The notes under the pieces: model-generated
Seen by the model: the letters and a program-made list of their open reading frames with translations, nothing else
Database searches by the model: none
What the model was told of the DNA's origin: nothing
Program-made: the position numbers and the translations under genes
Origin: an uncultured Thermodesulfobacteriota bacterium
GTDB lineage: Bacteria; Desulfobacterota; Zymogenia; Zymogenales; Zymogenaceae
Direction: 5' to 3'
Assembly (NCBI GenBank): GCA_964542895.1
Contig: CAZIWT010000002.1
Coordinates: 2,730 to 66,729, forward strand
Length of the DNA: 64,000 nt
Part shown: positions 39,319 to 49,624 of the stretch, piece after piece
Layout: each line of letters begins with the position of its first letter
Numbering within the stretch: the first letter of the stretch is position 1

Positions 39319-39667
39319 ATATAAGCCGAAAGTTCCGGTCCGGTTTTGGGGTTTGACGCCTAAAAGTAGATCGACTGTTCGGGTATTGTGTCGTTTTTTG
39401 GGGTGTTCTGCGCCATAAATTCCTTTAAAAAAGCTCGCCGCATTATTTTCCCATAGTTACCCCGGCCCGATTACTCAACTAATACCCCAACGGTTTTTCG
39501 TAGGCCACTTTATCTCGCCGGCATATCCGTGGAAATCCGTGTCTTGTCTCGAAGGCGCTGGGGGATGAGGGGTCCGGCAGACAGATCTGTATTAAGAAAA
39601 ATAGTGCGGCGGCGTAAAACGACATCACGTCTTTTTATTAAAAAGACCGGCGGGAATCTGATGGGTG

Positions 39668-41263
39668 TCAGGAGTCTTGATACTTTTCCACCAAAAGGTA
39701 TTTCTTGATTTTCCCCGTGGGAGTTCTGGGTAAATTTGTGGTAAATATGAACTTCTTCGGAGTCTCGAATACTTTGAGCCTTTCCGAACAGTATTGCCGA
39801 AGGTCTTCTTTCTTTATATCCATTCTGGGATTTCTCATTACTACGGCCGCAAGTATTTCCCCCTCTCGTTTTTCTTTAAGGGCGATTACGGCACAATCGA
39901 TAACCGCCTCATTCGATTTTATAACGTTTTCCACGTCCAACGAGGGGATATCGTTCTCCCCAATGGTCAACGTGTCCTCCCTCCTTCCCATAATATAAAG
40001 GAATCCGTCTTCATCGAATCTGCCGATATCACCGGTGTGAAACCAGCCGTTCACAATGGTCTCCTCGGTTTTCTCTTTGTTCTTCAGGTATCCGGTGGTC
40101 TGGGCGATATTTTTCGCCGTGATCTCCCCTTTTTCCCCGATCGGTGCGTCTTTCCCGTCGTCACGCAGGATCTTGACCTCCGATCCAAAATAGGGGGTGC
40201 CGATGGATCCCGGCTTTTTCCTCTTCTCCTCCGGCCCGATACCGGTCAAAAGCCCGCATTCGGAAAGCCCGTAGTATTCATAGACGTTTGGACAAAGCCG
40301 CTCGTATACCTTCTTAAGCAGATCTTCGGAGAGGGGCCCGCCGGTAAAGATCAATCCCCGAAGGGAGGAAAGGTCGAATTTGTCGAGGTCCGGGAGCTTC
40401 ATTATAACGGAGGCTATGATGGGGATCCATGTCGTGACGGTGACCTTCTCCCGCTGGATTATCTCGAGGATCTTTACCGGGTCGAAGTTGAGGATCACGT
40501 TTTTCGCCCCGATGAAGAGCCCCACTCCGCACCAGCTGAAGCCGGACCTTCCCGTTATCGGTATGACCGTCAGGATGGTATCGTCTGCGGTTACGTCGTG
40601 GGCGAAGGCGAAAAAGGGGAGTGCCGCAAAGTTGGCACCGTGTGTGATAAGAAAAGGCTTCGGCAGTCCCGTTGTCCCGGATGTCATATTGATAAACTCG
40701 TTGTCCCTGCTTACCACGACAACATCCGGCTCATCCCTGGACGCACTCTGTATCAACTCTTCATAGGGCGTAGCGAATTCGGGAGGATCATCACCGATGT
40801 ATATATAGTGCTTGACATTGGGAAGGGAGTCGAGGGCCTCGAGGAGCAGCTTCCTCGAGTCTTCGCAGAAGACCACGGTATCGGCGTCCGACAGATTTAT
40901 GTAGTCGATCATTTGGGGCCGTTCCATCTTGTAGTTCAAGGGGAGGCCGATGACACCCGTCTTTGCCAGGGCCCCGTATGTCTCGAATATTTCGGCCCGG
41001 TTGTCGATCAGGAAGGCGCAGGTGTCCCCTTTTTTCAACCCCATTTCAATAAGGGCGTTGCCGATACGGTTGATGCGGTCGTTGAACTCCCTGAAAGTAA
41101 ACCTCCTTCCCGTTTTGACGCAATATATCGCCTCCCTGTCACCGTATTTTATGGAGGCAATTTTAGCAAGATTGCCTACTCCTATTTCGTGTTCCGAGTA
41201 ACTCATTTTTCCTCTAAAGAAAAAAGACTCAACGATCCATGAAACGCCTGACAAATCTTCCAA
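39668..41263 (-). CDS. AMP-dependent synthetase/ligase (acyl-CoA / fatty-acyl-AMP ligase family)
   Basis: TSGTTGLPKP AMP-binding motif, GEI, GWFHTGDIGRFDEDGFLYIMGRRED. Overlaps the upstream peptidase ORF by 35 nt. Confidence 0.85.
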   Translation of the reverse strand: MEDLSGVSWIVESFFFRGKMSYSEHEIGVGNLAKIASIKYGDREAIYCVKTGRRFTFREFNDRINRIGNALIEMGLKKGDTCAFLIDNRAEIFETYGALAKTGVIGLPLNYKMERPQMIDYINLSDADTVVFCEDSRKLLLEALDSLPNVKHYIYIGDDPPEFATPYEELIQSASRDEPDVVVVSRDNEFINMTSGTTGLPKPFLITHGANFAALPFFAFAHDVTADDTILTVIPITGRSGFSWCGVGLFIGAKNVILNFDPVKILEIIQREKVTVTTWIPIIASVIMKLPDLDKFDLSSLRGLIFTGGPLSEDLLKKVYERLCPNVYEYYGLSECGLLTGIGPEEKRKKPGSIGTPYFGSEVKILRDDGKDAPIGEKGEITAKNIAQTTGYLKNKEKTEETIVNGWFHTGDIGRFDEDGFLYIMGRREDTLTIGENDIPSLDVENVIKSNEAVIDCAVIALKEKREGEILAAVVMRNPRMDIKKEDLRQYCSERLKVFETPKKFIFTTNLPRTPTGKIKKYLLVEKYQDS

Positions 41264-41909
41264 CCGACCCCTTAATGATTCCGTATGTAAGATTTGCGGA
41301 ACTCAAACGGGCGAGGACGCCGCCAAACCGGGGTTTTACGAGACCCTTTCCCTCACGCCTTATCATCGTGACCTTGAGGATCCCGTCGCCCTTGAGGATT
41401 CGGGGGGTGTCGGGATCGGTCATGTTGTCCCCCTTGGTTGTAACCGTGAGGTTCTTTTCGTTTTTCCTGATATTGCTCTTACCGATATTAATAACACGGT
41501 GGGCTATATATCTCTCCTCTTCCGGGAAGCACACTATGTCACCAGGCTTAATATTTCCCCCCCTCCCGTCCACTTTTATTACGATGAGGGTATCCCCGGG
41601 CCTTAAAGCCGGGTACATGCTGTAGCCGAAAAAGGGAACCGACCTTATATCTTCCGATCTCACGCTTCTGATCTCACAAACCGGCCTAAAATCAGGGTTT
41701 GAGGCCGCCGACGCATCCGGCGCCGGAGGGAATGCCGCCGCCCCTGCATCCCAGGGCGTTAAAATTTCCATCACGGCACTGTCCCGCATAAGGATTCCCG
41801 CCACCCGCACAATTTCCCGTGGCTTGTCCGCCTCCGGTACAAAGGCTTGAAGCCTGATTTCCGCCGCGGCATATTGATTGTCCCAGCGCCTGGACTCTAT
41901 CCACCTCAA
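41229..41909 (-). CDS. S24/S26-family (signal-peptidase/LexA-like) serine peptidase, probable leader peptidase; start ambiguous
   Basis: FGYSMYPALRPGDTLIVIKVD ... GDIVCF ... YIAHRVINIG matches the S-M-x-P...GD...K/H catalytic arrangement. The ORF-track start is TTG at 41909, which overlaps precursor A. Internal candidate starts are at 41789, 41771 or GTG 41663. Confidence 0.55.
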   Translation of the reverse strand: MRWIESRRWDNQYAAAEIRLQAFVPEADKPREIVRVAGILMRDSAVMEILTPWDAGAAAFPPAPDASAASNPDFRPVCEIRSVRSEDIRSVPFFGYSMYPALRPGDTLIVIKVDGRGGNIKPGDIVCFPEEERYIAHRVINIGKSNIRKNEKNLTVTTKGDNMTDPDTPRILKGDGILKVTMIRREGKGLVKPRFGGVLARLSSANLTYGIIKGSVGRFVRRFMDR

Positions 41910-41949
41910 GGGCTATCACCATCGGCGGCTCGTAAATTTTCTTCTTCAT
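41692..41949 (-). CDS. RiPP precursor peptide A (leader KKKIYEPPMVIALEVDRVQALGQ; 6-Cys Gly-rich core)
   Basis: 85 aa. Core SIC-x9-C-x9-C-x10-C-x9-C-x10-C with CxGG repeats. The leader is almost identical to precursor B. Confidence 0.6.
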   Translation of the reverse strand: MKKKIYEPPMVIALEVDRVQALGQSICRGGNQASSLCTGGGQATGNCAGGGNPYAGQCRDGNFNALGCRGGGIPSGAGCVGGLKP

Positions 41950-42031
41950 AAAATTGGTTACCTGAAAATACGTCTAAAAGCAGTAAAAAGTATCATGATC
42001 ACACAAAAAACCCCTCACTTTATTTTACGCC

Positions 42032-42265
42032 TTATTGATTGCTACCCGTTAAGTATTGACTGGACGCTGAGCTATCGTCCCTGCAATTCCCCTCGGCGGT
42101 GGAGCCGATCCCGCAGTTGTTGTTCGGTCTGGCGCCGGACCAGCGGTTATTCGGTTGCGCTCCCCCCCCGGTACATATATCCATTGACCGACAGCCTAAA
42201 TCCCATTCTCGTTGAGCTCAATGATCGTAGTTGATTGATACAACTTGGTTTTTAATCTCTTCTTT
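42032..42265 (-). pseudogene. degenerate third precursor-peptide paralog (nonsense + frameshift)
   Basis: The minus strand reads ...LYQSTTIIELNENGI*AVGQ, aligning to KKYEPPKIIDMNVDYVQALGQ with TAG where the paralogs have CAG (Gln). After a G8 homopolymer the next frame gives NNNCGIGSTAEGNCRDD with the C-x9-C spacing. No ATG. Confidence 0.35.
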
Positions 42266-43254
42266 TATGTCCTCTCTCTAAAAAAAGTCAAAGGATTAAT
42301 GCTGCGGGTAAAATGGATATTATGAAATGGAAAACGCTCTACTATCTCCCTTACCAATGTAAAGGTCTCTTTCGCCTCTCTTTCGGGGAAGTATCTGAAG
42401 AAGTGGATATGATTGTGCAGAATCCTCAACATTGCCTCCCCGGGTTTGATCTCTTCCAAATAATCATCTTCATCCTTTATCAGGAAGAAGAATCTCTTCG
42501 CTGAAACAGTCTCCCCACAGTTTTTTCTGCTTGACACCTGGGTAAATGGGGACGGCATCGTATAGTAGCACCTCCCCCGCCGAAATAAGAGAGAGCCGTC
42601 GTCGGCCAGGAGCCTATCCTTCCCTATGAGATCGGCGATGGTGCTCTTTCCCGCTCCGGATCCCCCGAAAAAGATATATCCCCCGCCATTGATTTCCGCC
42701 GAACAGGCGTGAAGCATCATACCTCCGTACAGCGGGGCGAAAAGCCCGACCGTCGCCTGAACAGCAAGGGATATGGTAGAGGCGTCGTCGAAAAAGCCAC
42801 TTTTTAATAAAAAAACCTCTCCCGAGGGTCTATCATAATTGATTAACAGGAGAAATGAGTTGTGGTGTAGGACTGCTATCCTGTCCTTTTTAAGTAGTGG
42901 TGTTAGATACGGAAATCCTTGAGACTCCACATTATCCTTCGACTTTACACGTCCCATTCTACTACTTCCCCTTTTCCAGCCGAAGGGGAGTTGACCGAAA
43001 GGGAACCTCTTCTCTACTCTGAGGAAATAATTTTCTAAAGCCCTGATCTCATCTCCGTTAAAGAGGCTTTTTAAAGGGACATCACTCCATTCTTGTATGA
43101 CAAGGGGGAATCTTTCTTCTCTGTTAGATAATATGTAATCCGAAAACTTCTTGGTTATGGCCTCCATAAACCGGTTATCATCTTCGCCTTTATAAGTTAT
43201 TTCGAGTTTTACCCCTCCTATATCGATATTAATCGAGATCATTCCAATTTTCAA
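42265..43254 (-). CDS. HPr-kinase-related kinase (HprK C-terminal-domain-like)
   Basis: P-loop FFGGSGAGKST plus a downstream LLADDGS-type segment, as in HprK/lasso-peptide kinases. 329 aa. Confidence 0.55.
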   Translation of the reverse strand: MKIGMISINIDIGGVKLEITYKGEDDNRFMEAITKKFSDYILSNREERFPLVIQEWSDVPLKSLFNGDEIRALENYFLRVEKRFPFGQLPFGWKRGSSRMGRVKSKDNVESQGFPYLTPLLKKDRIAVLHHNSFLLLINYDRPSGEVFLLKSGFFDDASTISLAVQATVGLFAPLYGGMMLHACSAEINGGGYIFFGGSGAGKSTIADLIGKDRLLADDGSLLFRRGRCYYTMPSPFTQVSSRKNCGETVSAKRFFFLIKDEDDYLEEIKPGEAMLRILHNHIHFFRYFPEREAKETFTLVREIVERFPFHNIHFTRSINPLTFFRERT

Positions 43255-43319
43255 ACACTAAAATAGTCTTCAAAATCTCATTGCCCAACTAATTGAACGA
43301 AAATTTAATTTTGATGAAA

Positions 43320-43664
43320 TCAGCTTGGCACAGATCCCGTGGTGCAGCTCCCGGCAGGGATGGTCCCCGAATCGCACCTGCCGCCGAAGGCCGTTGTACC
43401 CGCCTTACACATACCTCCGAAGGCCATACCGCCGCTCTGACACTTCCCGCCGGCTCCGCTGGGATCGCCCCCCGCCTGGCAGCGGGCACCCGCGGAGCTA
43501 CCGGATTGGCACTTTCCCCCATAGGCCATATTACCGAACTGACACATCGTTTCCGCAGACGGCCCGGTGTTACACTGTCCGGGTGTAACCGTCTGCCCCA
43601 GCGCCTGAACGTAATCCACATTCATATCGATAATCTTCGGTGGCTCATATTTCTTCTTTGTCAT
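43320..43664 (-). CDS. RiPP precursor peptide B (leader MTKKKYEPPKIIDMNVDYVQALGQ; 8-Cys Gly-rich core, C-terminal Ser)
   Basis: 114 aa. Core repeats C-(Q/N/K)-(S/A/T)-G...G-(K/R/M) with Cys every 9-12 residues. Ends ...TTGSVPS. Confidence 0.6.
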   Translation of the reverse strand: MTKKKYEPPKIIDMNVDYVQALGQTVTPGQCNTGPSAETMCQFGNMAYGGKCQSGSSAGARCQAGGDPSGAGGKCQSGGMAFGGMCKAGTTAFGGRCDSGTIPAGSCTTGSVPS

Positions 43665-43693
43665 GGAGTTTCCCCGAATGTTAAAATCAAAAA

Positions 43694-43719
43694 AAAGTTA
43701 GTTTAAAATGAAGGTCGTT
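43694..43719 (-). promoter_or_regulatory. perfect 7-bp inverted repeat (GGTCGTT-N7-AACGACC) in the 5' region of precursor B
   Basis: Lies 30-55 nt upstream of the precursor B start, within a 248-nt AT-rich gap after the rSAM gene. Confidence 0.3.
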
Positions 43720-43912
43720 AGATGAAACGACCGTTATAAGTCCTTGAATTATATTAAAAACGGGAGACGCTTCCTATCTATTTAAAATCGTATTTTCGAT
43801 CTTTTAATGTGAAATTCTCAAAGGTCTTTCTTATATTCCCTTAAATCCGTCTGAAACCATAGTATTTGATATCAACCTTTAAAGCTAATCCTCCGATCTC
43901 GATTATCATTCC

Positions 43913-44995
43913 TCATATAATTCTCGTCTCCGGGAAGATGCCCATCTCGTACGCCTCCTGGCAGATGCGGTCAGGAGCGGAGAGATCCCCGTGAAGCACG
44001 TAGGCGTTCGCCCTGCACGAACCGAGGCACAATCCCTTCAAGATACACCTCCCGCAGATACCCTTCATGTTGTCGGGCACAATCCTCCTCAATTCCGACA
44101 AGACAGGGCTTTTTCTCCACAACTCTTCAAGATTGTCCTCCCTTATATTTCCTATAACGAGTTCCGGCACCTCCTTTCCTATCCCGCAGATGGATATGTG
44201 CCCGGATGCGATTATGCCGATTATGTTGAGGATGTGACACTGGGCGTTGTTCCCATTGAAAAAGGAGTCTATCTTTTTGAAGGCCGATGGTATGGTGAAG
44301 TAGGTCTGGATATCGTACTTCTCCTTCAGATCGTTTTCCACCCACGAAGATAACCTGATAAGCTCATCGACAGGGACCGTCTTTCCCCCTTCCGTCAATT
44401 TCCCTCCCCTCCCTATAGGCATCACCGGGTTGAACTTGACCGAGTTGGCGTTGAGGCGCTTTGCCATGTCGACAACCCCCTCGATATCCCCGGAGTTGTC
44501 CCCTATCAGGCTCATGATGATCTGTACCCTCAATCCCTGGCTCACCATATTCTCGACGCCCGTAACCGCATCATCCCACGAACCCTCAACGCCGCGAAAG
44601 GAGTCGTGAAACTTGGGGTTGATGCTGTCGATGCTGACGCTTATCGAGGATGCATTGCTCCGCTTCAAGAAGGCCGCCGTATTTTCGTCTATCAGGGTCC
44701 CATTTGTCTCGATATCCATCACGAGCTCTTCCGACGATATTACCTCGATTATCTCGAATATCTCCCTGTTGATAAACGGCTCTCCCCCGGTGAGCTTTAT
44801 GTTGAAAAGGCCTATCGGCCTTCCCTCTTTTATGATCTTCCTTACGTCGTCAGCCGTTATTCCGTCGGGGGCATCTTCGGTCTCCGGCACGAAGCTCGGG
44901 GTCAGCCAGCAGTGGGAGCACTTAAGGTTACAGCCCGAGGTCAGGTACAGATAGGCCGAATTCAATCGATAGCTCGGTTTTTCATCCGATTCCAT
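43913..44995 (-). CDS. radical SAM / SPASM-domain peptide-modifying enzyme
   Basis: CNLKCSHC (CxxxCxxC), GGEP. C-terminal Cys set QCHIL...ICGIG...ICGRCILKGLCLGSC typical of SPASM auxiliary clusters. Confidence 0.85.
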   Translation of the reverse strand: MESDEKPSYRLNSAYLYLTSGCNLKCSHCWLTPSFVPETEDAPDGITADDVRKIIKEGRPIGLFNIKLTGGEPFINREIFEIIEVISSEELVMDIETNGTLIDENTAAFLKRSNASSISVSIDSINPKFHDSFRGVEGSWDDAVTGVENMVSQGLRVQIIMSLIGDNSGDIEGVVDMAKRLNANSVKFNPVMPIGRGGKLTEGGKTVPVDELIRLSSWVENDLKEKYDIQTYFTIPSAFKKIDSFFNGNNAQCHILNIIGIIASGHISICGIGKEVPELVIGNIREDNLEELWRKSPVLSELRRIVPDNMKGICGRCILKGLCLGSCRANAYVLHGDLSAPDRICQEAYEMGIFPETRII

Positions 44996-46142
44996 TCTCG
45001 AGCTCCTCGGTGTAAAGCTTGTAACAGCAGAACGGATCCCTGGCGAGCATCGTCCCGTAGGCGGAATACGCCGAGGCGGGGCACCCGGCGGTGCACATGG
45101 GAGCGTATCGGCAATCTCTGCAGGTAGAAAGGCTTGTCACCGGGGTCGTGAATCTCTTTCTGAACTCCACAAAGGTCTCGGACTCCCTCCAGATAATATC
45201 GAGGGGGGTGTCGAGGATATTTCCGGCCGTGATCTCCGGGAGGCGGTCGCAGGGGACCGCCCAGCCGTCCGGTCTTATGGCGCACTGGTTTTTTAAGGCA
45301 CCGCAGCCGGAGAGGAAGTGCGTGTTCGGATCGTAATTCTTGAGGTTATCAGGATTGATGTTTCTTATCCCCTCGAAAATCTCGTCCATCTCGAAAAAAG
45401 TCCCGGAGATAAACGGGTAATCACACCTTATCTCCTTTAACTCCTCGACAATCCTTTTTATCTCGACGGCGTCGAGCTTAAGCTCCTCCATATATTTCAG
45501 TCCCCGCCCCTCGTATAACAGGTAGTTGAACTTTACGCTCGAAATACCCGTGTCTGCCGCCAGCTCCGCTATGGCCTTCAGTTCCCTGAAATTGAGCCGG
45601 GTTACGGTGCAGTAGGCGCTGACATCGTGCCCGAATCGTATGAGATGCTTTATCCCGTTAAGGGCCGCCTTGAAGGCCCCGCTTCCCCTCAAAAGGTCGT
45701 GGGAGCTTGGTCCCGCCCCGTCGAGGCTGACCATTATGTCGTCCATCTTCCTGATGTACTTGGTGAGCCTCTTGGCAGCTCCTTCGTCTATCAATGTGGC
45801 ATTAGTGTTCAGGGAAATTCTCAAGGGCTTGCTGTAAAAGGCGTCCAAGATATCGTAGAAATCCTCCCGGACGAAAGGCTCCCCCCCGCTTATCTTTACC
45901 CTCAAGATCTTGAGCCTCTTTATCTCGTCGATAAAATCGAGCCACTGTTCGGTCGTGAGGTCCGGGCCGTAACTGAAGCCGTCCGAGTAGACAGCGCAGT
46001 GCTTGCACGCCTGGTTGCACCTCGACGTAATCGAGACAAAGAGGGACATCGGTGTCTTCGGTATCTGCGGGGTATAGGATATATCTAAAGTGTCGGAAGT
46101 CTCGCCCGCCGCAATGCCCCTTCCCATACTGTCTGTTTCCAT
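44982..46142 (-). CDS. radical SAM / SPASM-domain peptide-modifying enzyme (second copy)
   Basis: CNQACKHC, GGEP. C-terminal GCGALKNQC...PC...CRDCRYAPMCTAGCP. 14-nt overlap with the downstream rSAM gene. Confidence 0.85.
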   Translation of the reverse strand: METDSMGRGIAAGETSDTLDISYTPQIPKTPMSLFVSITSRCNQACKHCAVYSDGFSYGPDLTTEQWLDFIDEIKRLKILRVKISGGEPFVREDFYDILDAFYSKPLRISLNTNATLIDEGAAKRLTKYIRKMDDIMVSLDGAGPSSHDLLRGSGAFKAALNGIKHLIRFGHDVSAYCTVTRLNFRELKAIAELAADTGISSVKFNYLLYEGRGLKYMEELKLDAVEIKRIVEELKEIRCDYPFISGTFFEMDEIFEGIRNINPDNLKNYDPNTHFLSGCGALKNQCAIRPDGWAVPCDRLPEITAGNILDTPLDIIWRESETFVEFRKRFTTPVTSLSTCRDCRYAPMCTAGCPASAYSAYGTMLARDPFCCYKLYTEELENGIG

Positions 46143-46181
46143 TGGATAAAGCCCCTATTTTACATTCTTGGAGGAAAAATA

Positions 46182-46460
46182 CTATTCGGAGAGGAAGCCC
46201 CGCGCCTTTATCTGCTCGATGAACTCCTCCACGTCTTTTTTTACAGCGTCCGATTCGACCTCCGTGTATTGAGTCAACACCTTCTTTACGATGTGGTCGA
46301 TGCTGTTCTTGCCGTTCAGCTCCTTGAAGACCAAGACCCCGGTCTCGTTCAACGCCTGAAGAGTGTCCTGTATCGGATCGAAGAGAAACGCACCGTCGTC
46401 CTCCTCCCGAAGGACGATATCGTCCTTTATCGAGGGGTAGTTAGTTTTATTGTTTCCCAT
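46182..46460 (-). CDS. PqqD-family RiPP recognition element protein
   Basis: 92 aa with the fold-defining pattern LFDPIQDTLQALNETGVLVFKELNG...SIDHIVKKV...EVE...DVEEFIEQIKARGFL. Confidence 0.6.
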   Translation of the reverse strand: MGNNKTNYPSIKDDIVLREEDDGAFLFDPIQDTLQALNETGVLVFKELNGKNSIDHIVKKVLTQYTEVESDAVKKDVEEFIEQIKARGFLSE

Positions 46461-46809
46461 TTACTACGACTCCCTTTTTGAAGAATTCAACGTATATCCT
46501 TTTTACGTCCTTAAAAACCGTATCGAACTCCTCGCCGTACATCTCCCCTATGATCCTCGATACCCCGTTTACGTCGATCTTCCCGTTCGTTTTCGAGTAG
46601 ACCTTTGAAGCCGTTTCGTTGATCAAGATGGAAGTCCTTCTCTCCGAATCGAAGAGGAGGCCCTCTCCACCCTCAAACTCGACCGAGAGTATGTGGGGAC
46701 CTTTTTTGAATATGGTGCCCCCGCTAACCGGCGGTGGTTTCGGTACCCTCGGATTTTTTGCGCTTTTGTTTCTGATGAAATCTATTGCTTGCCTTAAAAT
46801 GGGCGGCAT
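46447..46809 (-). CDS. second PqqD-like protein (divergent)
   Basis: 120 aa. LLFDSERRTSILINETASKVY...GVSRIIGEMYGEE...VFKDV..IYVEFFKKGVV. 14-nt overlap with the adjacent RRE gene. Confidence 0.45.
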   Translation of the reverse strand: MPPILRQAIDFIRNKSAKNPRVPKPPPVSGGTIFKKGPHILSVEFEGGEGLLFDSERRTSILINETASKVYSKTNGKIDVNGVSRIIGEMYGEEFDTVFKDVKRIYVEFFKKGVVVNGKQ

Positions 46810-47960
46810 TACCCTTTCCTGCGAAAAAAGATGCCGAAGAGAGATTTCAGGAGGTGGATCGTTCTCAAAAAATAGAGTTTTACCATTTCCCCACGATCCG
46901 CAACCCTTCCCTGCTCCCTAAAAAGAATACTTCTTTCGGGGAAAAGCAACTCATTATAATAATAGAACTTTTTTCTTGAATTGTCAATATCTAAGCCCAA
47001 TAGGATATCGCCGAACTGGAGGGAGCGCCTGCTCCCGATCGCCGCCGATATCAGCCTCCTCTCGATTGGGCCGGGCCTGAAACCGGAGACTTCGTTTGGC
47101 TTTAGGGGAAAACCGAACCGCTCCGTTATGATCCAGAGCATCTTCCCGACGACCTTTGACAATTTGCCGGAGGCTATCATCTCAAAGAGGAGATCGGTGG
47201 AAAACCTGTCGCCGAGGCATTCGATCACCCTCCCCACATCCATAAACCAGTAGTTCATAAGATAGGAGTGTTTCAGGGCGTGTTGGGCCGAGATTATTAT
47301 TGTGTGGTAGGGATTGGGAGAAAGGTAATCGGCGTCCCCTATTTTAACTTTTTCGGCCGACGCGAATATCTCGTCTGTGGATAGGGTCGGGAGATACTCT
47401 CTCGCCCTTATCCTCCCCTCGTCGATTATCTCTGTGTGGAGGTCAAAGTAAAGAGAACCTTTCGACCAGTGGGCCGGGATTTCCCCCCCGGGTTCGGTCG
47501 TAAACGGCTCGTACCCCGCCCCTCTCAATATCTCGGATGCCTTCCTAATGTCGCATCGATAGACCAGAATATCGGCGTCGGTGGTGGGCCTTATCCTGAA
47601 ATCGTTGTAGTAGCGGTTGATGATGTCGTGACCCTTGATGAGGACCGCGTTTATCCCCCCATCATTGAACAGCTTGAATATCGCCTCGAGCTCCCGCTTC
47701 ATCGCCATGTTCAACAACTCCGTACGGGCAAGCGTCGTCCTGGCCCTCTCAAACTCCGCCTCGTCGATAAGGGAGAGGAGCCCCCAGTCGGTCAGGGCAG
47801 AGATCAGTATCCCGAGGGAGCCCTTGTCCACGGTAAAGGGAACGAGGTCTTTCGGAAGCCTCTCAATTTGCGGGGTGGGCGCCGGGGTGTTCCCTCCCCA
47901 AGCCCATCGGCTTGCCAGGGCGAGCCCGATTATCTCGCTTGCACTTAGAGATAGAGCCAA
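46809..47960 (-). CDS. nucleotidyltransferase-family protein (PF14907-like), TTG start
   Basis: LIKGHDIINRYYNDFRIRPTTDADILV segment. GGAGG 6 nt upstream of TTG at 47960. 1-nt overlap with the following gene. Confidence 0.5.
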   Translation of the reverse strand: MALSLSASEIIGLALASRWAWGGNTPAPTPQIERLPKDLVPFTVDKGSLGILISALTDWGLLSLIDEAEFERARTTLARTELLNMAMKRELEAIFKLFNDGGINAVLIKGHDIINRYYNDFRIRPTTDADILVYRCDIRKASEILRGAGYEPFTTEPGGEIPAHWSKGSLYFDLHTEIIDEGRIRAREYLPTLSTDEIFASAEKVKIGDADYLSPNPYHTIIISAQHALKHSYLMNYWFMDVGRVIECLGDRFSTDLLFEMIASGKLSKVVGKMLWIITERFGFPLKPNEVSGFRPGPIERRLISAAIGSRRSLQFGDILLGLDIDNSRKKFYYYNELLFPERSILFREQGRVADRGEMVKLYFLRTIHLLKSLFGIFFRRKG

Positions 47961-48091
47961 CCGGAACCTCCATTAAACATTACGAGTTGCCCACTAATAT
48001 CTCAATACTATCAGAATCGAGCGGTAATTTGTGCTTTTATTTTGACTCTACACCAAAACCTCTTTAAGCCCCCAAAAAAACCACCCTATCG

Positions 48092-48121
48092 TTGACAAAG
48101 GAGCCTCAATAAAAGTATAAT
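48092..48121 (+). promoter_or_regulatory. strong sigma70-type promoter TTGACA-N18-TATAAT
   Basis: TTGACA 48092..48097 and TATAAT 48116..48121, about 36 nt upstream of the 48158 ATG. Divergent from the RiPP operon. Confidence 0.55.
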
Positions 48122-48157
48122 TCTTTAAAATGTTATAGTGGAACTGAAATCGATTTA

Positions 48158-49624
48158 ATGGTGATGAAAGTGAGAGCTGAACTTGAAGAGAGCGCCAAGG
48201 CGCTGAAAAAAATTTTGAACGCGAAGTCCCTGGCCGTGGTGGGGGCGTCCAACAGCTTTATGAATCCCGCCACGAACCTCCTGGCCACAATACTCTCCAG
48301 CGGATACAAGGGGGAGGTCTACCCGATCCACCCGAAGGAGGATATCGCCCTGGGGCTCAAGGCATACCGGAGTGTCGTGGATATCCCCGGGGATGTGGAC
48401 CTTGCCGTTATCGTTGTCTCCAACAGGATCGTCCCCAAAATACTGAAAGAGTGCGCCGAGAAGGGGATAAAGAGCGTCGTTGTCATAACGGCGGGATACA
48501 AGGAGATGGGAAAAGAGGGGGCAAAGCTCGAGGAGGAGCTTTTAAAGACCGCGAGGGAGCTCGGCATCCGGTTTACCGGCCCGAACTGCATCGGGATCAT
48601 CAACACCCACAACGACCTCGACTGCTCCATGTTCTACTACGAGGGGGTCCCCGGCGGGGTTGGGCTCGTCTCACAGAGCGGGAGCTACATCACACAGCCG
48701 CTCCCCTATTTCTACAGGAGGGGAATAAACCTCTCCGGCGCGATAAGCGTGGGCAACCAGACCGACATAGACATCGCCGACTGCCTGGCCTATTTCGTCG
48801 AAGATGACAAAACAAACGCCGTCGCCGCGTACATCGAGGGGATAGGGGACGGGGAGAAGTTCATCGAGGCGGCCCGCGCCTTAACTGCAAAGAAGCCTCT
48901 GGTCGCCCTATACGTCGGCGGGACGGAGGCGGGCTCCAGGGCCGGGAAGTCCCACACAGGAGCCGTGGCGACCCCCGACCTCGTCATCGACGCGGTCTTC
49001 GCCCAGACGGGCGTGATAAGGGCAAAAGACGTCCAGGAGCTCTTCGACTTCGTCCACGCCCTCTCCCTCCAGCCGCTGCCGAAGGGGAGCCGCGCCGCCG
49101 TCATCACCAACTCCGGGGGGCCGGGGGTCTCCATGGTGGATGCCGCTGTGAGGCTGGGGCTCAGTGTGCCGGAGTTCTCGAAACCGTTTCAGAAAAAACT
49201 CAGGGAGATAAGCATCCACACGGCCCAGGTGGGAAACCCGGTCGATATGACGATGGACTTTGACATCAAAAAGCAGTTCATCGACATTACGAAGATGGTT
49301 ATAGAGAGCGGGGAGGTGGATTCCATCCTCTTTTACGGCGTCTTCGGCGGGACCAACTTCGACAAGAAATTCGAGATCCTGGGGATAGCACAGGACGACC
49401 TGCGACTCGGCTATTACAAATATATTGATCAGGTGATCGAGGAGTTCAACGGGATAATAAAGTCCTTCGACATCCCCGTGGTAACGGCCTCCTTTACCGG
49501 CAGGGAGGAGCCGGCCGTTGCGAAGATGATCGAGAAGGGGATACCGATCTACTCCACGCCGGAGCGGGCTTCTGCGGCCCTGGCGGCCATGGCGAGATAT
49601 GCCAGGTTCAGGGGGTTGTTTTAG
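48158..49624 (+). CDS. acetate--CoA ligase (ADP-forming) alpha-subunit-like CoA-binding protein
   Basis: N-terminal CoA-binding Rossmann domain (LAVVGASN...GYKGEVYPIHPK...VDLAVIVV). Succinyl-CoA-synthetase-alpha-like middle domain (GPNCIGII). Confidence 0.7.
   Translation: MVMKVRAELEESAKALKKILNAKSLAVVGASNSFMNPATNLLATILSSGYKGEVYPIHPKEDIALGLKAYRSVVDIPGDVDLAVIVVSNRIVPKILKECAEKGIKSVVVITAGYKEMGKEGAKLEEELLKTARELGIRFTGPNCIGIINTHNDLDCSMFYYEGVPGGVGLVSQSGSYITQPLPYFYRRGINLSGAISVGNQTDIDIADCLAYFVEDDKTNAVAAYIEGIGDGEKFIEAARALTAKKPLVALYVGGTEAGSRAGKSHTGAVATPDLVIDAVFAQTGVIRAKDVQELFDFVHALSLQPLPKGSRAAVITNSGGPGVSMVDAAVRLGLSVPEFSKPFQKKLREISIHTAQVGNPVDMTMDFDIKKQFIDITKMVIESGEVDSILFYGVFGGTNFDKKFEILGIAQDDLRLGYYKYIDQVIEEFNGIIKSFDIPVVTASFTGREEPAVAKMIEKGIPIYSTPERASAALAAMARYARFRGLF

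What the first reader, a model, noticed from the sequence alone, without database searches (positions are those of the whole stretch)
42265..43254. HprK-like kinase plus PF14907-like nucleotidyltransferase as candidate tailoring enzymes (O-phosphorylation or nucleotidylation of the peptide)
The kinase has the HprK-type P-loop GGSGAGKST and sits between the precursors. HprK homologs are the established Ser-O-kinases of paeninodin-type lasso peptides, where they modify the precursor C-terminal Ser. Precursor B ends in ...SVPS. The first gene of the operon (46809..47960) carries the KG...R...D.D..V segment of the uncharacterised nucleotidyltransferase family that recurs in the same RiPP contexts. 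Pairing these with thioether-forming rSAM enzymes would be an unusual hybrid maturation route.
Basis: partly seen in the sequence, partly recalled or inferred. Interest (0 to 1): 0.6.

Follow-up and report, generated by a model that had tools for sequence, protein, structure and literature searches.

The report
Kinase-like and nucleotidyltransferase genes in peptide cassette
The two genes are real and look catalytically intact, but they are fixed core parts of a rare, uncharacterised radical-SAM peptide-maturation cassette of deltaproteobacterial metagenome genomes, not optional add-ons, and comparison with related loci argues against the proposed target, the peptide's last serine.

Summary
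Observation confirmed. 42265-43254(-) encodes a 325/329-aa P-loop protein (GGSGAGKST, residues 197-205) between two Cys/Gly-rich precursor genes. 46809-47960(-) is a clear PF14907 nucleotidyltransferase (E=4e-28).

The P-loop protein is not a true HPr kinase: TIGR00679 scores 19 bits against a cutoff of 240, and the window has no HPr gene. Its homologues carry Pfam PF27840 'ScmC'. Its model matches ATP-PEPCK and HprK/P, and it keeps the His-Lys-Asp-Asp set that is essential in lasso-peptide kinases (H182, K203, D218, D219).

In about 20 related loci, all from Deltaproteobacteria/Thermodesulfobacteriota MAGs or metagenomes, the order is fixed: PF14907, PqqD, PqqD, rSAM/SPASM (ScmE-like), rSAM/SPASM (ScmF-like), ScmC-like, precursor(s), S26 peptidase, often an acyl-CoA ligase. 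So the pairing is a divergent form of Haft's in-silico 'SynChlorMet' cassette, not an ad hoc hybrid.

The paeninodin analogy fails on its defining point. Only the window's precursor B, of 17 precursors, ends in Ser; most end in Pro. The only conserved hydroxyl residue is the Ser/Thr just after the leader (16 of 17).

Best guess, inferred only: phosphorylation of a precursor hydroxyl, then elaboration of that phosphate by the PF14907 enzyme, as with PsmK/PsmN in pseudomycoidin.

Verdict: new variant of a known kind, moderate interest.

The parts
46809..47960 (-). PF14907 (NTP_transf_5) Pol-beta-type nucleotidyltransferase, 383 aa, first gene of the operon. Catalytic motif K109-G110-H111 ... D128-x-D130 (window 47571-47579) ... 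D173.
   Evidence: Pfam E=4e-28. These residues are invariant in 14 homologues. AF2 pLDDT 80. Foldseek top hits are MenT1, ANT(2'')-Ia, LnuA and FKRP.
46447..46809 (-). Divergent PqqD-like (RRE) protein, 120 aa.
   Evidence: Pfam PqqD E=0.015. Conserved at this position in the related loci, and fused to the next PqqD in L004.
46182..46460 (-). PqqD-family peptide chaperone, 92 aa, ScmD-like.
   Evidence: Pfam PqqD E=2.6e-13. NCBIfam ScmD 49 bits against a cutoff of 100.
44982..46142 (-). Radical SAM/SPASM enzyme, 386 aa, ScmE-like.
   Evidence: TIGR04250 ScmE 235 bits (cutoff 400), the best of 84 families. Radical_SAM and SPASM domains.
43913..44995 (-). Radical SAM/SPASM enzyme, 360 aa, ScmF-like.
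   Evidence: TIGR04251 ScmF 366 bits (cutoff 400), E=1.8e-109.
43320..43664 (-). Precursor B, 114 aa. Leader ...YEPPKIIDMNVDYVQALGQ, then a core with 8 C-x-x-G units, ending GSVPS.
   Evidence: Weak ScmA hit, E=0.008.
42265..43254 (-). ScmC-like P-loop phosphotransferase with an HprK/PEPCK fold (the finding). Likely start is ATG 43242. H182 (42709-42711), P-loop 197-205 (42640-42666), D218-D219 (42598-42603), NHIHFF 281-286 (42397-42414).
42032..42243 (-). Decayed third precursor gene. The leader remnant YQSTTIIELNENGI*AVGQ has a stop where the intact leaders have Gln. The core (ICTGGGAQPNNRWSGARPNNNCGIGSTAEGNC...GSNQ) is in another frame.
   Evidence: The core resembles the intact L020 precursor. 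A similar remnant occurs in L001 9038-9199.
41692..41949 (-). Precursor A, 85 aa, with 6 C-x-x-G units, ending GGLKP.
   Evidence: 85% identical to the L001 precursor.
41229..41663 (-). Archaeal/SipW-type signal peptidase I (S26) homologue, about 144 aa from GTG 41663. It has YSMYP (Ser) and AHRV (His) motifs. No hydrophobic segment precedes the catalytic Ser. Probable leader peptidase.
   Evidence: TIGR02228 53.2 bits against a cutoff of 51.85. Peptidase_S26 E=1.7e-5. Start. Conserved after the precursor in the related loci.
39668..41206 (-). AMP-binding acyl-CoA/acyl-AMP ligase, last gene of the operon. Present in about half of the related cassettes.
   Evidence: AMP-binding E=6e-64. PRK06187 367 bits. 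Conserved in L001, L003, L010, L011, L015 and L022. Start.

Best explanation
42265-43254 encodes a catalytically intact ATP-dependent phosphotransferase of the HprK/PEPCK-fold superfamily. It belongs to a small subfamily of Pfam PF27840 'ScmC'. 46809-47960 encodes a catalytically intact Pol-beta-type nucleotidyltransferase of PF14907.

Both are obligatory, co-inherited components of a divergent SynChlorMet-like RiPP cassette. That cassette also has two PqqD-like chaperones, two radical-SAM/SPASM enzymes, precursors built of 10-11-residue C-x-x-G-x-x-(A/P) units, a soluble S26-type leader peptidase, and often an acyl ligase.

Proposed mechanism (inferred, not shown):
1. The leader (K-x-YEPPxIIDLxVDYTQAVG) is presented by a PqqD protein.
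2. The ScmC-like enzyme transfers the gamma-phosphate of ATP to a precursor hydroxyl. The best candidate is the near-invariant Ser/Thr directly after the leader (...A-[LVM]-G-[QA]-[S/T]).
3. The PF14907 enzyme then acts on that phosphate, either nucleotidylating it or attaching a phosphodiester-linked group. This would mirror the PsmK (HprK-type kinase) / PsmN (uncharacterised NTP transferase) pair of pseudomycoidin.

The C-terminal Ser of precursor B is at most an incidental extra site.
For: Shown here:
- Family and fold. All homologues carry PF27840 ScmC. 18 of 21 subfamily members weakly hit TIGR04249 ScmC, 15 of 21 hit HprK_rel_A, and 9 of 21 hit Pfam PEPCK_ATP. The AF2 model (pLDDT 85.7, pTM 0.86) matches ATP-PEPCK at E=3.6e-7 (TM 0.45-0.48 over the whole query) and HprK/P at E=7e-6.
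- Active site. H182, G197, G202, K203 and D218 are invariant in 27 sequences. They align with the His, P-loop Lys and Asp-Asp of M. pneumoniae HprK/P and of PEPCK. The same His-Lys-Asp-Asp set is conserved and mutation-sensitive in lasso-peptide kinases (PMC9266682).
- PF14907 enzyme. K109-G110, D128, D130 and D173 are invariant. The fold matches hydroxyl-nucleotidylating enzymes. PsmN's D134A/D136A mutant is inactive, and those residues sit at a similar position (PMC6993621).
- Linkage. The same gene order occurs in L001, L003, L004, L010, L011, L014, L015 and L022. PF14907 is also present in the single-rSAM variants L013, L016 and L027, giving 12 of 13 informative loci.
- Candidate site. The junction Ser/Thr is present in 16 of 17 precursors, while no position inside the repeat units exceeds 38% Ser/Thr.

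Precedents:
- PsmN needs PsmK-phosphorylated peptide.
- PF14907 is also found beside a thymidylate kinase in a phosphonate cluster (PMC8942020).
Against: - No biochemical data exist for any Scm-type cassette. Library searches found nothing.
- The peptide as substrate is inferred from synteny only.
- The broader PF27840 family is large (38,551 representatives at E<=1e-3). It often lies outside RiPP contexts, next to methyltransferases, UvrB/UvrC or GCS2. The fold alone therefore does not imply a peptide substrate.
- The junction Ser/Thr could simply be a P1'/P2' determinant for the S26 peptidase.
- One variant precursor (L026) lacks the junction Ser/Thr.
- The best structural match is PEPCK, which acts on a small molecule.
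Confidence: 0.42

Rival explanations
1. One reading: a paeninodin-type kinase that phosphorylates the C-terminal Ser of the precursor (precursor B ends ...SVPS), acting as an optional tailoring step.
For: Precursor B does end in Ser. The enzyme shares the His-Lys-Asp-Asp motif of PadeK, ThcoK and PsmK.
Against: - In lasso systems the C-terminal Ser is 'extremely conserved' wherever the kinase is present.
- Here 1 of 17 precursors ends in Ser. Ten end in Pro. The others end in Thr, Met, Gly or Gln.
- The closest relative of precursor B (L023) ends ...GSVP.
- Precursor A in the same operon ends ...LKP.
- The gene is not optional in the cassette.
Confidence: 0.07
2. The substrate is not the peptide. 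The ScmC-like enzyme and the PF14907 enzyme together make or activate a small-molecule donor, for example a phosphorylated then nucleotidylated metabolite that is later attached to the peptide. Alternatively they modify another pathway protein.
For: - The whole-length structural match is to PEPCK, a small-molecule kinase.
- Many PF27840 members sit in non-RiPP neighbourhoods.
- A kinase plus a nucleotidyltransferase is the classical route to NDP-activated donors (established biochemistry).
- PF14907 lies next to a thymidylate kinase in a phosphonate cluster.
- Zyubko et al. left open that PsmN makes a substrate for another transferase.
- L004 and L006 carry Wzz/Wzy_C polysaccharide genes next to the cassette.
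Against: - The cassette-linked subfamily has its own N-terminal domain with an invariant RFPF motif, and it always lies directly beside the precursor gene.
- No transferase that could use such a donor is conserved in the cassette, unless the AMP-ligase or PF14907 itself does this.
Confidence: 0.2
3. Phosphorylation, possibly followed by nucleotidylation, is an activation step and not a final decoration. The activated Ser/Thr is eliminated to Dha/Dhb. That residue then either captures a Cys thiol (lanthionine-like) or, at the new N-terminus after leader cleavage, becomes a 2-oxoacyl cap.
For: - Class III/IV lanthipeptide synthetases use phosphorylation followed by elimination (established knowledge).
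- The cores are rich in both Cys and Ser/Thr.
- The only conserved Ser/Thr lies within one or two residues of the predicted cleavage site and two residues before the first Cys in most precursors.
Against: - No phospho-Ser/Thr lyase-like gene is found in any cassette.
- No repeat-unit position is consistently Ser/Thr (at most 38%), so unit-wise lanthionines are excluded.
- Two rSAM/SPASM enzymes are already available for Cys chemistry.
Confidence: 0.1
4. It is a bona fide HPr kinase/phosphorylase involved in carbon catabolite regulation, and lies in the operon by chance.
For: Weak hits to Hpr_kinase_C (E=0.0057) and TIGR00679 (E=5e-4). 1knx is the best PDB sequence hit, at E=0.0013.
Against: - TIGR00679 scores 19.4 bits against a cutoff of 240.
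- Similarity is limited to about 45 residues around the P-loop.
- The window has no HPr homologue: tblastn with B. subtilis and E. coli HPr gives E>1.
- Synteny with RiPP genes is strict.
Confidence: 0.01
5. A non-catalytic scaffold or ATP-dependent chaperone that holds the precursor for the rSAM enzymes. The nucleotidyltransferase would act independently, for example by direct O-AMPylation of a Ser, Thr or Tyr.
For: The structural neighbours of the PF14907 protein (ANT(2''), LnuA, MenT) nucleotidylate hydroxyls directly, without prior phosphorylation. The ScmC-like gene is always adjacent to the ScmF-like rSAM gene.
Against: The full catalytic set H182, K203, D218 and D219(E) is invariant across 25-64% identity, which is not expected for a pure scaffold. 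The PsmK/PsmN dependency is a precedent for sequential action.
Confidence: 0.1

Closest known systems
SynChlorMet (SCM) cassette: ScmA precursor, ScmC, ScmD (PqqD), ScmE and ScmF (rSAM/SPASM). NCBIfam TIGR04248-TIGR04252, defined in silico (from my memory: Haft & Basu 2011, J Bacteriol; the paper could not be opened).
   Same: Every core protein has the corresponding Scm model as its best NCBIfam hit: ScmF 366 bits, ScmE 235, ScmD 49, ScmC 25, ScmA 16. The homologues carry Pfam PF27840 'ScmC'. The logic is the same: an HprK-like protein, PqqD and two rSAM/SPASM enzymes around a small precursor.
   Different: All five scores are below the curated equivalog cutoffs (400, 400, 100, 125, 35). This subfamily is 320-343 aa, with its own N-terminal domain (RFPF motif) and an NHIHFFR motif. 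The cassette additionally has a PF14907 gene, a second PqqD, an S26 peptidase and often an acyl ligase. I could not check whether canonical SCM cassettes contain PF14907.
Lasso-peptide HprK-type kinases (PadeK, ThcoK, SyanK, PsmK) and the PsmN 'uncharacterised NTP transferase' of pseudomycoidin.
   Same: HprK superfamily with a His-Lys-Asp-Asp catalytic set. They act on leader-bearing precursors in clusters with PqqD-like RRE proteins. A kinase gene is paired with an uncharacterised nucleotidyltransferase that has a DxD motif near residue 130.
   Different: There is no lasso cyclase or B2 protease here. The C-terminal Ser that defines those substrates is absent from 16 of 17 precursors. Here the pair is fixed, whereas psmN-like genes are optional in lasso clusters.
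HPr kinase/phosphorylase (HprK/P) and ATP-dependent PEP carboxykinase (PEPCK-like P-loop fold).
   Same: Shared fold and a shared active-site core: the His before the P-loop, GxSGxGK[ST], and Asp-Asp.
   Different: Sequence similarity is restricted to about 50 residues. Scores are far below the family cutoffs. There is no HPr gene. Size and N-terminal domain differ.
HprK-related kinase A/B (TIGR04352, TIGR04355; the 'HPr-rel-A system').
   Same: 15 of 21 subfamily members hit HprK_rel_A weakly and 6 of 21 hit HprK_rel_B. More distant PF27840 members (P0025, P0157) hit HprK_rel_B best.
   Different: All scores are at most 41 bits against cutoffs of 200. The gene content of that system is recalled from memory only and was not tested.

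Membership tests
Bona fide HPr kinase/phosphorylase (TIGR00679 / PF07475) | Score above the curated family cutoff over the C-terminal catalytic domain | tested here: not met
   TIGR00679 scores 19.4 bits against 240. PF07475 scores 16.6 bits against 33.3. Only residues 179-223 align.
Bona fide HPr kinase/phosphorylase (TIGR00679 / PF07475) | HPr (ptsH) substrate gene in the genome neighbourhood | tested here: not met
The rest of the genome is not visible.
HprK/PEPCK-like P-loop phosphotransferase superfamily | PEPCK-like fold with the His, Walker A Lys and Asp-Asp catalytic core | tested here: met
   Foldseek gives PEPCK at E=3.6e-7 and HprK/P at E=7e-6. H182, K203 and D218 are invariant, and D219 is D or E. 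The alignment to 1knx and PEPCK covers these residues.
Pfam PF27840 ScmC | Match to the Pfam model | tested here: inconclusive
   The model is absent from the local Pfam copy. However, the identical-sequence cluster P0001 and all 29 homologues carry a precomputed PF27840, labelled 'ScmC'.
NCBIfam TIGR04249 ScmC (equivalog) / canonical SynChlorMet cassette | Score at or above the curated cutoff (125 bits) | tested here: not met
   24.7 bits, E=1.3e-5. 18 of 21 subfamily members hit it, with a best E of 3e-8, but none reaches the cutoff.
NCBIfam TIGR04249 ScmC (equivalog) / canonical SynChlorMet cassette | Neighbourhood with ScmD (PqqD), ScmE and ScmF (two rSAM/SPASM) and an ScmA-type precursor | tested here: met
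   All are present, each with the Scm model as its best hit, though below cutoff. Conserved in the related loci.
Lasso-type RiPP Ser kinases (PadeK/ThcoK/PsmK) | Conserved His-Lys-Asp-Asp catalytic motif | tested here: met
   H182, K203, D218 and D219 are present. The motif is as described in PMC9266682.
Lasso-type RiPP Ser kinases (PadeK/ThcoK/PsmK) | Precursor with a conserved C-terminal Ser as the phospho-acceptor | tested here: not met
   1 of 17 precursors ends in Ser.
Lasso-type RiPP Ser kinases (PadeK/ThcoK/PsmK) | Lasso cyclase (C) and B1/B2 genes in the cluster | tested here: not met
   None among the operon's Pfam and NCBIfam assignments. Only PqqD-like proteins are shared.
Lasso-type RiPP Ser kinases (PadeK/ThcoK/PsmK) | ATP-dependent phosphorylation of the precursor peptide in vitro | not testable with these tools
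   Requires a kinase assay with MS.
PF14907 NTP_transf_5 (Pol-beta nucleotidyltransferase superfamily) | Pfam match above the gathering score, plus the G[SGH]...DxD...D/E catalytic carboxylates | tested here: met
   99.1 bits against 31.2. K109, G110, D128, D130 and D173 are invariant. Foldseek matches NTase-fold enzymes, with TM to target 0.55-0.61.
PsmN-type enzyme (acts on phosphorylated RiPP) | Homology to PsmN and dependence on prior phosphorylation | not testable with these tools
Only the description 'family of uncharacterized nucleotidyltransferases' and D134/D136 are available.

The most novel reading that the evidence does not exclude
The ScmC-like kinase and the PF14907 enzyme are obligatory maturation enzymes. 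They would install a phosphodiester-linked group (a nucleotide or a sugar phosphate) on, or chemically activate, the conserved Ser/Thr at the leader-core junction of a radical-SAM-crosslinked C-x-x-G repeat peptide. This would be the first radical-SAM RiPP class in which phosphoryl/nucleotidyl chemistry is part of core biosynthesis. It would also give the first function for the SynChlorMet-type cassettes and for PF14907 outside lasso peptides.
Probability: 0.2. Interest if true: 0.8.

Novelty: new variant of a known kind. Interest (0 to 1): 0.5.

Why it matters
Phosphorylation is rare among RiPPs. A 2025 survey lists only microcin C, paeninodin, pseudomycoidin, phospeptin, salivaricin 10 and cyanobactins, and none is a radical-SAM class (PMC12639078).

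I found no experimental work on Scm-type cassettes in the searchable library.

This window, with about 20 related loci, gives a compact and strictly conserved gene set. It also gives a defined leader, a simple repeat core (C-x-x-G-x-x-A/P), and one conserved hydroxyl residue to mutate. Together these make the roles of an HprK-fold kinase and a PF14907 nucleotidyltransferase directly testable.

The result would also inform the much larger PF27840 superfamily, which has tens of thousands of representatives of unknown function.

Tried and rejected
- Bona fide HprK/P: rejected on family scores and the absence of HPr.
- C-terminal Ser as the conserved acceptor: rejected by the 17-precursor comparison.
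- A phospho-acceptor inside each repeat unit: rejected as an obligatory feature, since no unit position exceeds 38% Ser/Thr.
- Literature on SynChlorMet, Scm genes, TIGR04249, PF27840, or HprK with RiPP and radical SAM: no relevant paper. Haft & Basu 2011 and Zhu 2016 (JBC) are not held.
- PDB sequence and profile searches:
  - For ScmC they reach only the P-loop region of HprK/P and PEPCK.
  - For PF14907 they find nothing.
- Promoter and terminator scan of 39400-48300: counts are no higher than in shuffled sequence, so it is uninformative.
- First related-loci scan with the 27-sequence alignment failed for lack of a conserved stretch. It was repeated with the 21-sequence subfamily.
- Contexts of distant PF27840 members (L006, L007, L017-L019): these were looked up to find canonical SCM cassettes. 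They turned out mostly to be non-RiPP neighbourhoods. Whether canonical SCM cassettes carry PF14907 therefore stays open.
- The 610-aa ORF upstream in L008, the one locus without a PF14907 hit, has no Pfam match.
Full report
OBSERVATION.

The minus strand between 39668 and 47960 carries one tightly packed gene series.
- 46809-47960: PF14907 nucleotidyltransferase.
- 46447-46809 and 46182-46460: two PqqD-like proteins.
- 44982-46142 and 43913-44995: two radical-SAM/SPASM enzymes.
- 43320-43664: precursor B.
- 42265-43254: the 329-aa ORF of the finding.
- 42032-42243: a decayed precursor remnant.
- 41692-41949: precursor A.
- 41229-41663: an S26 peptidase homologue.
- 39668-41206: an AMP-binding ligase.

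The flagged ORF contains GGSGAGKST at residues 197-205. It does lie between two precursor genes, and precursor B does end ...GSVPS. The likely start is ATG 43242 (325 aa). Homologues start at the equivalent position and a 325-aa database member has the same sequence.

WHAT THE P-LOOP PROTEIN IS.

Against the local Pfam copy it gives only sub-threshold hits: Hpr_kinase_C E=0.0057 and PEPCK_ATP E=0.013. In NCBIfam the best hit is TIGR04249 'SynChlorMet cassette protein ScmC' at 24.7 bits (cutoff 125). Next is HPr(Ser) kinase TIGR00679 at 19.4 bits (cutoff 240).

A search of 5.8 billion proteins returned 29 homologues. All carry the newer Pfam family PF27840, which the gene tables label 'ScmC'. 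Twenty-three of them are full-length relatives of 320-343 aa with 25-64% identity.

Across 27 sequences H182, G197, G202, K203, D218 and P236 are invariant. Within the 21-member subfamily R83-F84-P85, Q166, F237, Q239 and H282-I283-H284-x-F286 (the NHIHFFR motif) are also invariant.

phmmer against PDB aligns ...LHAcsaEinGgGyiffGgSGaGKStiA.dLigkdrLlaDDgsl... with M. pneumoniae HprK/P and with ATP-PEPCKs. The alignment covers the His, the Walker A Lys and the Asp-Asp.

The AlphaFold model built on the 27-sequence alignment is confident: pLDDT 85.7, pTM 0.86, with only loop 94-110 disordered. Foldseek against PDB gives ATP-PEPCK first, at E=3.6e-7 and TM 0.45-0.48 normalised to the query, over both domains. 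HprK/P follows: 1knx at E=7e-6, and the L. casei catalytic domain at TM 0.45-0.47 normalised to the target.

The protein is therefore a two-domain member of the PEPCK/HprK P-loop phosphotransferase fold with an intact catalytic core. The same His-Lys-Asp-Asp set is reported as conserved and mutation-sensitive in the lasso-peptide kinases (PMC9266682).

WHAT THE FIRST GENE IS.

PF14907 is hit at E=4e-28 over the full model. In 14 homologues the Pol-beta-type signature is invariant: K109-G110-H111, D128-A-D130 and D173. There is no sequence relative in PDB.

The AF2 model (pLDDT 80) matches these enzymes with TM to target 0.55-0.61: the MenT1 nucleotidyltransferase toxin (E=6.6e-5), ANT(2'')-Ia, LnuA, and the FKRP ribitol-phosphate transferase domain. 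All of them transfer an NMP or a phospho-alcohol from a nucleotide donor to a hydroxyl.

CONTEXT: A FIXED CASSETTE, NOT AD HOC TAILORING.

I obtained neighbourhoods of homologues from three sources: exact-protein look-ups, a scan of one genome per species, and a metagenome scan. I compared them with the window proteins by tblastn.

The order found is: PF14907, PqqD-a, PqqD-b, ScmE-like rSAM, ScmF-like rSAM, ScmC-like, precursor(s), S26 peptidase, and in about half the loci an AMP ligase.
- This order recurs in L001, L003, L004, L010, L011, L014, L015 and L022.
- It also recurs, as far as short contigs allow, in L008, L009, L020, L021, L023 and L024.
- A variant with a single ScmF-like rSAM has PF14907 after the peptidase in L013 and L016, and on the opposite strand in L027.
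- PF14907 is detectable in 12 of 13 loci with enough flank. The exception, L008, ends right after the ScmC-like gene.

All named sources are Deltaproteobacteria/Thermodesulfobacteriota MAGs, one labelled Candidatus Zymogenaceae.

Every core protein of the window has the corresponding Scm model as its best NCBIfam hit: ScmF 366/400 bits, ScmE 235/400, ScmD 49/100, ScmC 25/125, ScmA 16/35. The locus is therefore a divergent relative of the curated, in-silico-defined SynChlorMet cassette. It is extended by PF14907, a second PqqD, an S26 peptidase and often a ligase. Both enzymes of the finding are core genes, not accessories.

In contrast, the wider PF27840 superfamily is very large: 38,551 representatives at E<=1e-3, 1,250 at E<=1e-30, but only about 15 that match full-length above 280 bits. 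It often sits outside peptide contexts, next to methyltransferases, UvrB/UvrC, or GCS2/M20 genes. None of ten sampled members reaches the TIGR04249 cutoff.

THE PRECURSORS AND THE PROPOSED TARGET.

I collected seventeen precursors.
- Leaders are strongly conserved: K-x-YEPPxIIDLxVDYTQAVG-Q/A.
- Cores are periodic. 110 of 113 Cys lie in C-x-x-G. Position +6 is Ala or Pro in 97 of 113. Cys-Cys spacing is 10 (60 cases) or 11 (29 cases).
- No position within a unit is Ser/Thr in more than 38% of units.
- The one conserved hydroxyl residue is the Ser/Thr directly after G-Q/A at the end of the leader, present in 16 of 17.
- C-termini are ...KP, ...KTP, ...KSP, ...KAP, ...SVP, ...SSP, ...TSP, ...TPT, ...PGM, ...PAM, ...TNQ and ...LSG.
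- Only the window's precursor B ends in Ser. Its closest relative (L023, 62% identity) ends ...GSVP.

In lasso systems the C-terminal Ser is the conserved acceptor wherever a kinase is present. That defining feature is not met here, so a paeninodin-type mechanism cannot be the family's function.

MOST LIKELY MECHANISM (INFERENCE).

The closest experimental precedent for a kinase paired with an 'uncharacterised NTP transferase' is pseudomycoidin. There PsmK phosphorylates the precursor. PsmN, whose D134A/D136A mutant is inactive, is required for +162 Da groups that sit on the phosphate and protect it from phosphatase (PMC6993621). A PF14907 gene also flanks PEP mutase together with a thymidylate kinase in one phosphonate gene-cluster family (PMC8942020). 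Both cases suggest that PF14907 enzymes act on phosph(on)ate groups made by a partner kinase.

My proposal has three steps:
1. PqqD-mediated presentation of the leader.
2. ATP-dependent O-phosphorylation of a precursor hydroxyl, most likely the junction Ser/Thr.
3. PF14907-dependent nucleotidylation or phosphodiester elaboration of that phosphate.

What is shown: fold, intact active sites, strict co-inheritance, and adjacency to the precursor. What is inferred: the peptide as substrate, the site, and the order of the steps. Confidence is about 0.4.

RIVALS.
- A small-molecule or donor-making role. The PEPCK-like whole-protein match and the non-RiPP relatives support it; about 0.2.
- Phosphorylation as activation for elimination. 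No lyase is present and there is no unit-wise Ser/Thr; about 0.1.
- A scaffold, with an independently acting NTase; about 0.1.
- True HprK/P; about 0.01.

COMPARISON AND NOVELTY.

The system resembles the PsmK/PsmN pair in enzyme types and resembles SCM cassettes in architecture. It fails the curated membership thresholds of TIGR04249-04252. It also fails two defining features of lasso kinase systems: the C-terminal Ser and the lasso cyclase.

No paper in the searchable library mentions SynChlorMet, the Scm families, or an HprK-type enzyme in a radical-SAM RiPP. A 2025 list of phosphorylated RiPPs contains no radical-SAM class.

I rate it a new variant of a known, uncharacterised kind, with interest 0.5. 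The identity part of the finding is solid and the locus is a good experimental entry point.

LIMITS.
- The PsmK, PsmN and PadeK sequences and the canonical Scm seed loci could not be fetched. Relatedness to them rests on motif descriptions and sub-threshold HMM hits.
- The rSAM chemistry (thioether or other) was not addressed beyond family hits.

Noticed in passing
window 42032-42243 (-): A decayed third precursor gene. The leader remnant YQSTTIIELNENGI*AVGQ has TAG where the intact leaders have Gln. The Cys-containing core (ICTGGGAQPNNRWSGARPNNNCGIGSTAEGNC...GSNQ) is in a different frame, next to a poly-G run. It resembles the intact L020 precursor type. L001 9038-9199 has a similar remnant.
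   Followed up: partly
window 41692-41949 and 43320-43664 (-); precursors in L001, L003, L009-L011, L013, L015, L016, L020-L026: The cores are strictly periodic. 110 of 113 Cys sit in C-x-x-G. Position +6 is Ala or Pro in 97 of 113. Cys spacing is 10 or 11 in 89 of 96 intervals. This suggests one crosslink or ring per 10-11-residue unit made by the rSAM/SPASM enzymes.
   Followed up: partly
window 41229-41663 (-): An archaeal/SipW-type signal peptidase I homologue (TIGR02228, just above cutoff) with a Ser (YSMYP) and a His (AHRV). It has no N-terminal hydrophobic anchor. It follows the precursor gene wherever the contig extends that far. It is a probable soluble leader peptidase. The leader ends A-[LVM]-G-[QA], which fits an A-x-G cleavage rule.
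   Followed up: partly
window 39668-41206 (-) and 48158-49624 (+): An AMP-binding acyl ligase closes the operon here and in L001, L003, L010, L011, L015 and L022. A CoA_binding/Succ_CoA_lig protein (ADP-forming acyl-CoA synthetase type) is divergently transcribed upstream here, in L001 and in L003. This hints at acylation of the peptide.
   Followed up: no
L004 1414-5873; L006 2859-4499: Polysaccharide export and chain-length genes (Poly_export, Wzz/GNVR with AAA_31, Wzy_C) lie directly upstream of the cassette in two otherwise unrelated loci.
   Followed up: no
L013, L016, L025, L026, L027: A variant cassette with only one (ScmF-like) rSAM/SPASM gene. PF14907 (about 25% identity) lies downstream of the peptidase in L013 and L016, or on the opposite strand in L027. 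L027 also has a second rSAM gene on the opposite strand.
   Followed up: partly
L007, L017, L018, L019: Distant PF27840 'ScmC' members (276-310 aa) sit in non-RiPP neighbourhoods. Some are between uvrB and uvrC next to a class I methyltransferase. Others are near GCS2/peptidase M20 genes. One representative (P0167, 652 aa) is a fusion of a methyltransferase and an ScmC-like domain.
   Followed up: partly
L004 10960-11163; L014 9560-10700; L015 10001-10938: Possible decay or assembly errors in relatives. The L004 precursor ORF keeps the leader but has only one Cys, so it is probably frame-shifted. The ScmC-like genes of L014 and L015 match in two frames or only in part. The L014 leader carries an in-frame stop.
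   Followed up: no
window 42265-43254 (-), residues 94-110 and 281-286: A disordered, basic, poorly conserved loop (pLDDT<50) separates the two domains. An invariant NHIHFFR motif with two His has no counterpart that I could identify in HprK/P or PEPCK.
   Followed up: no
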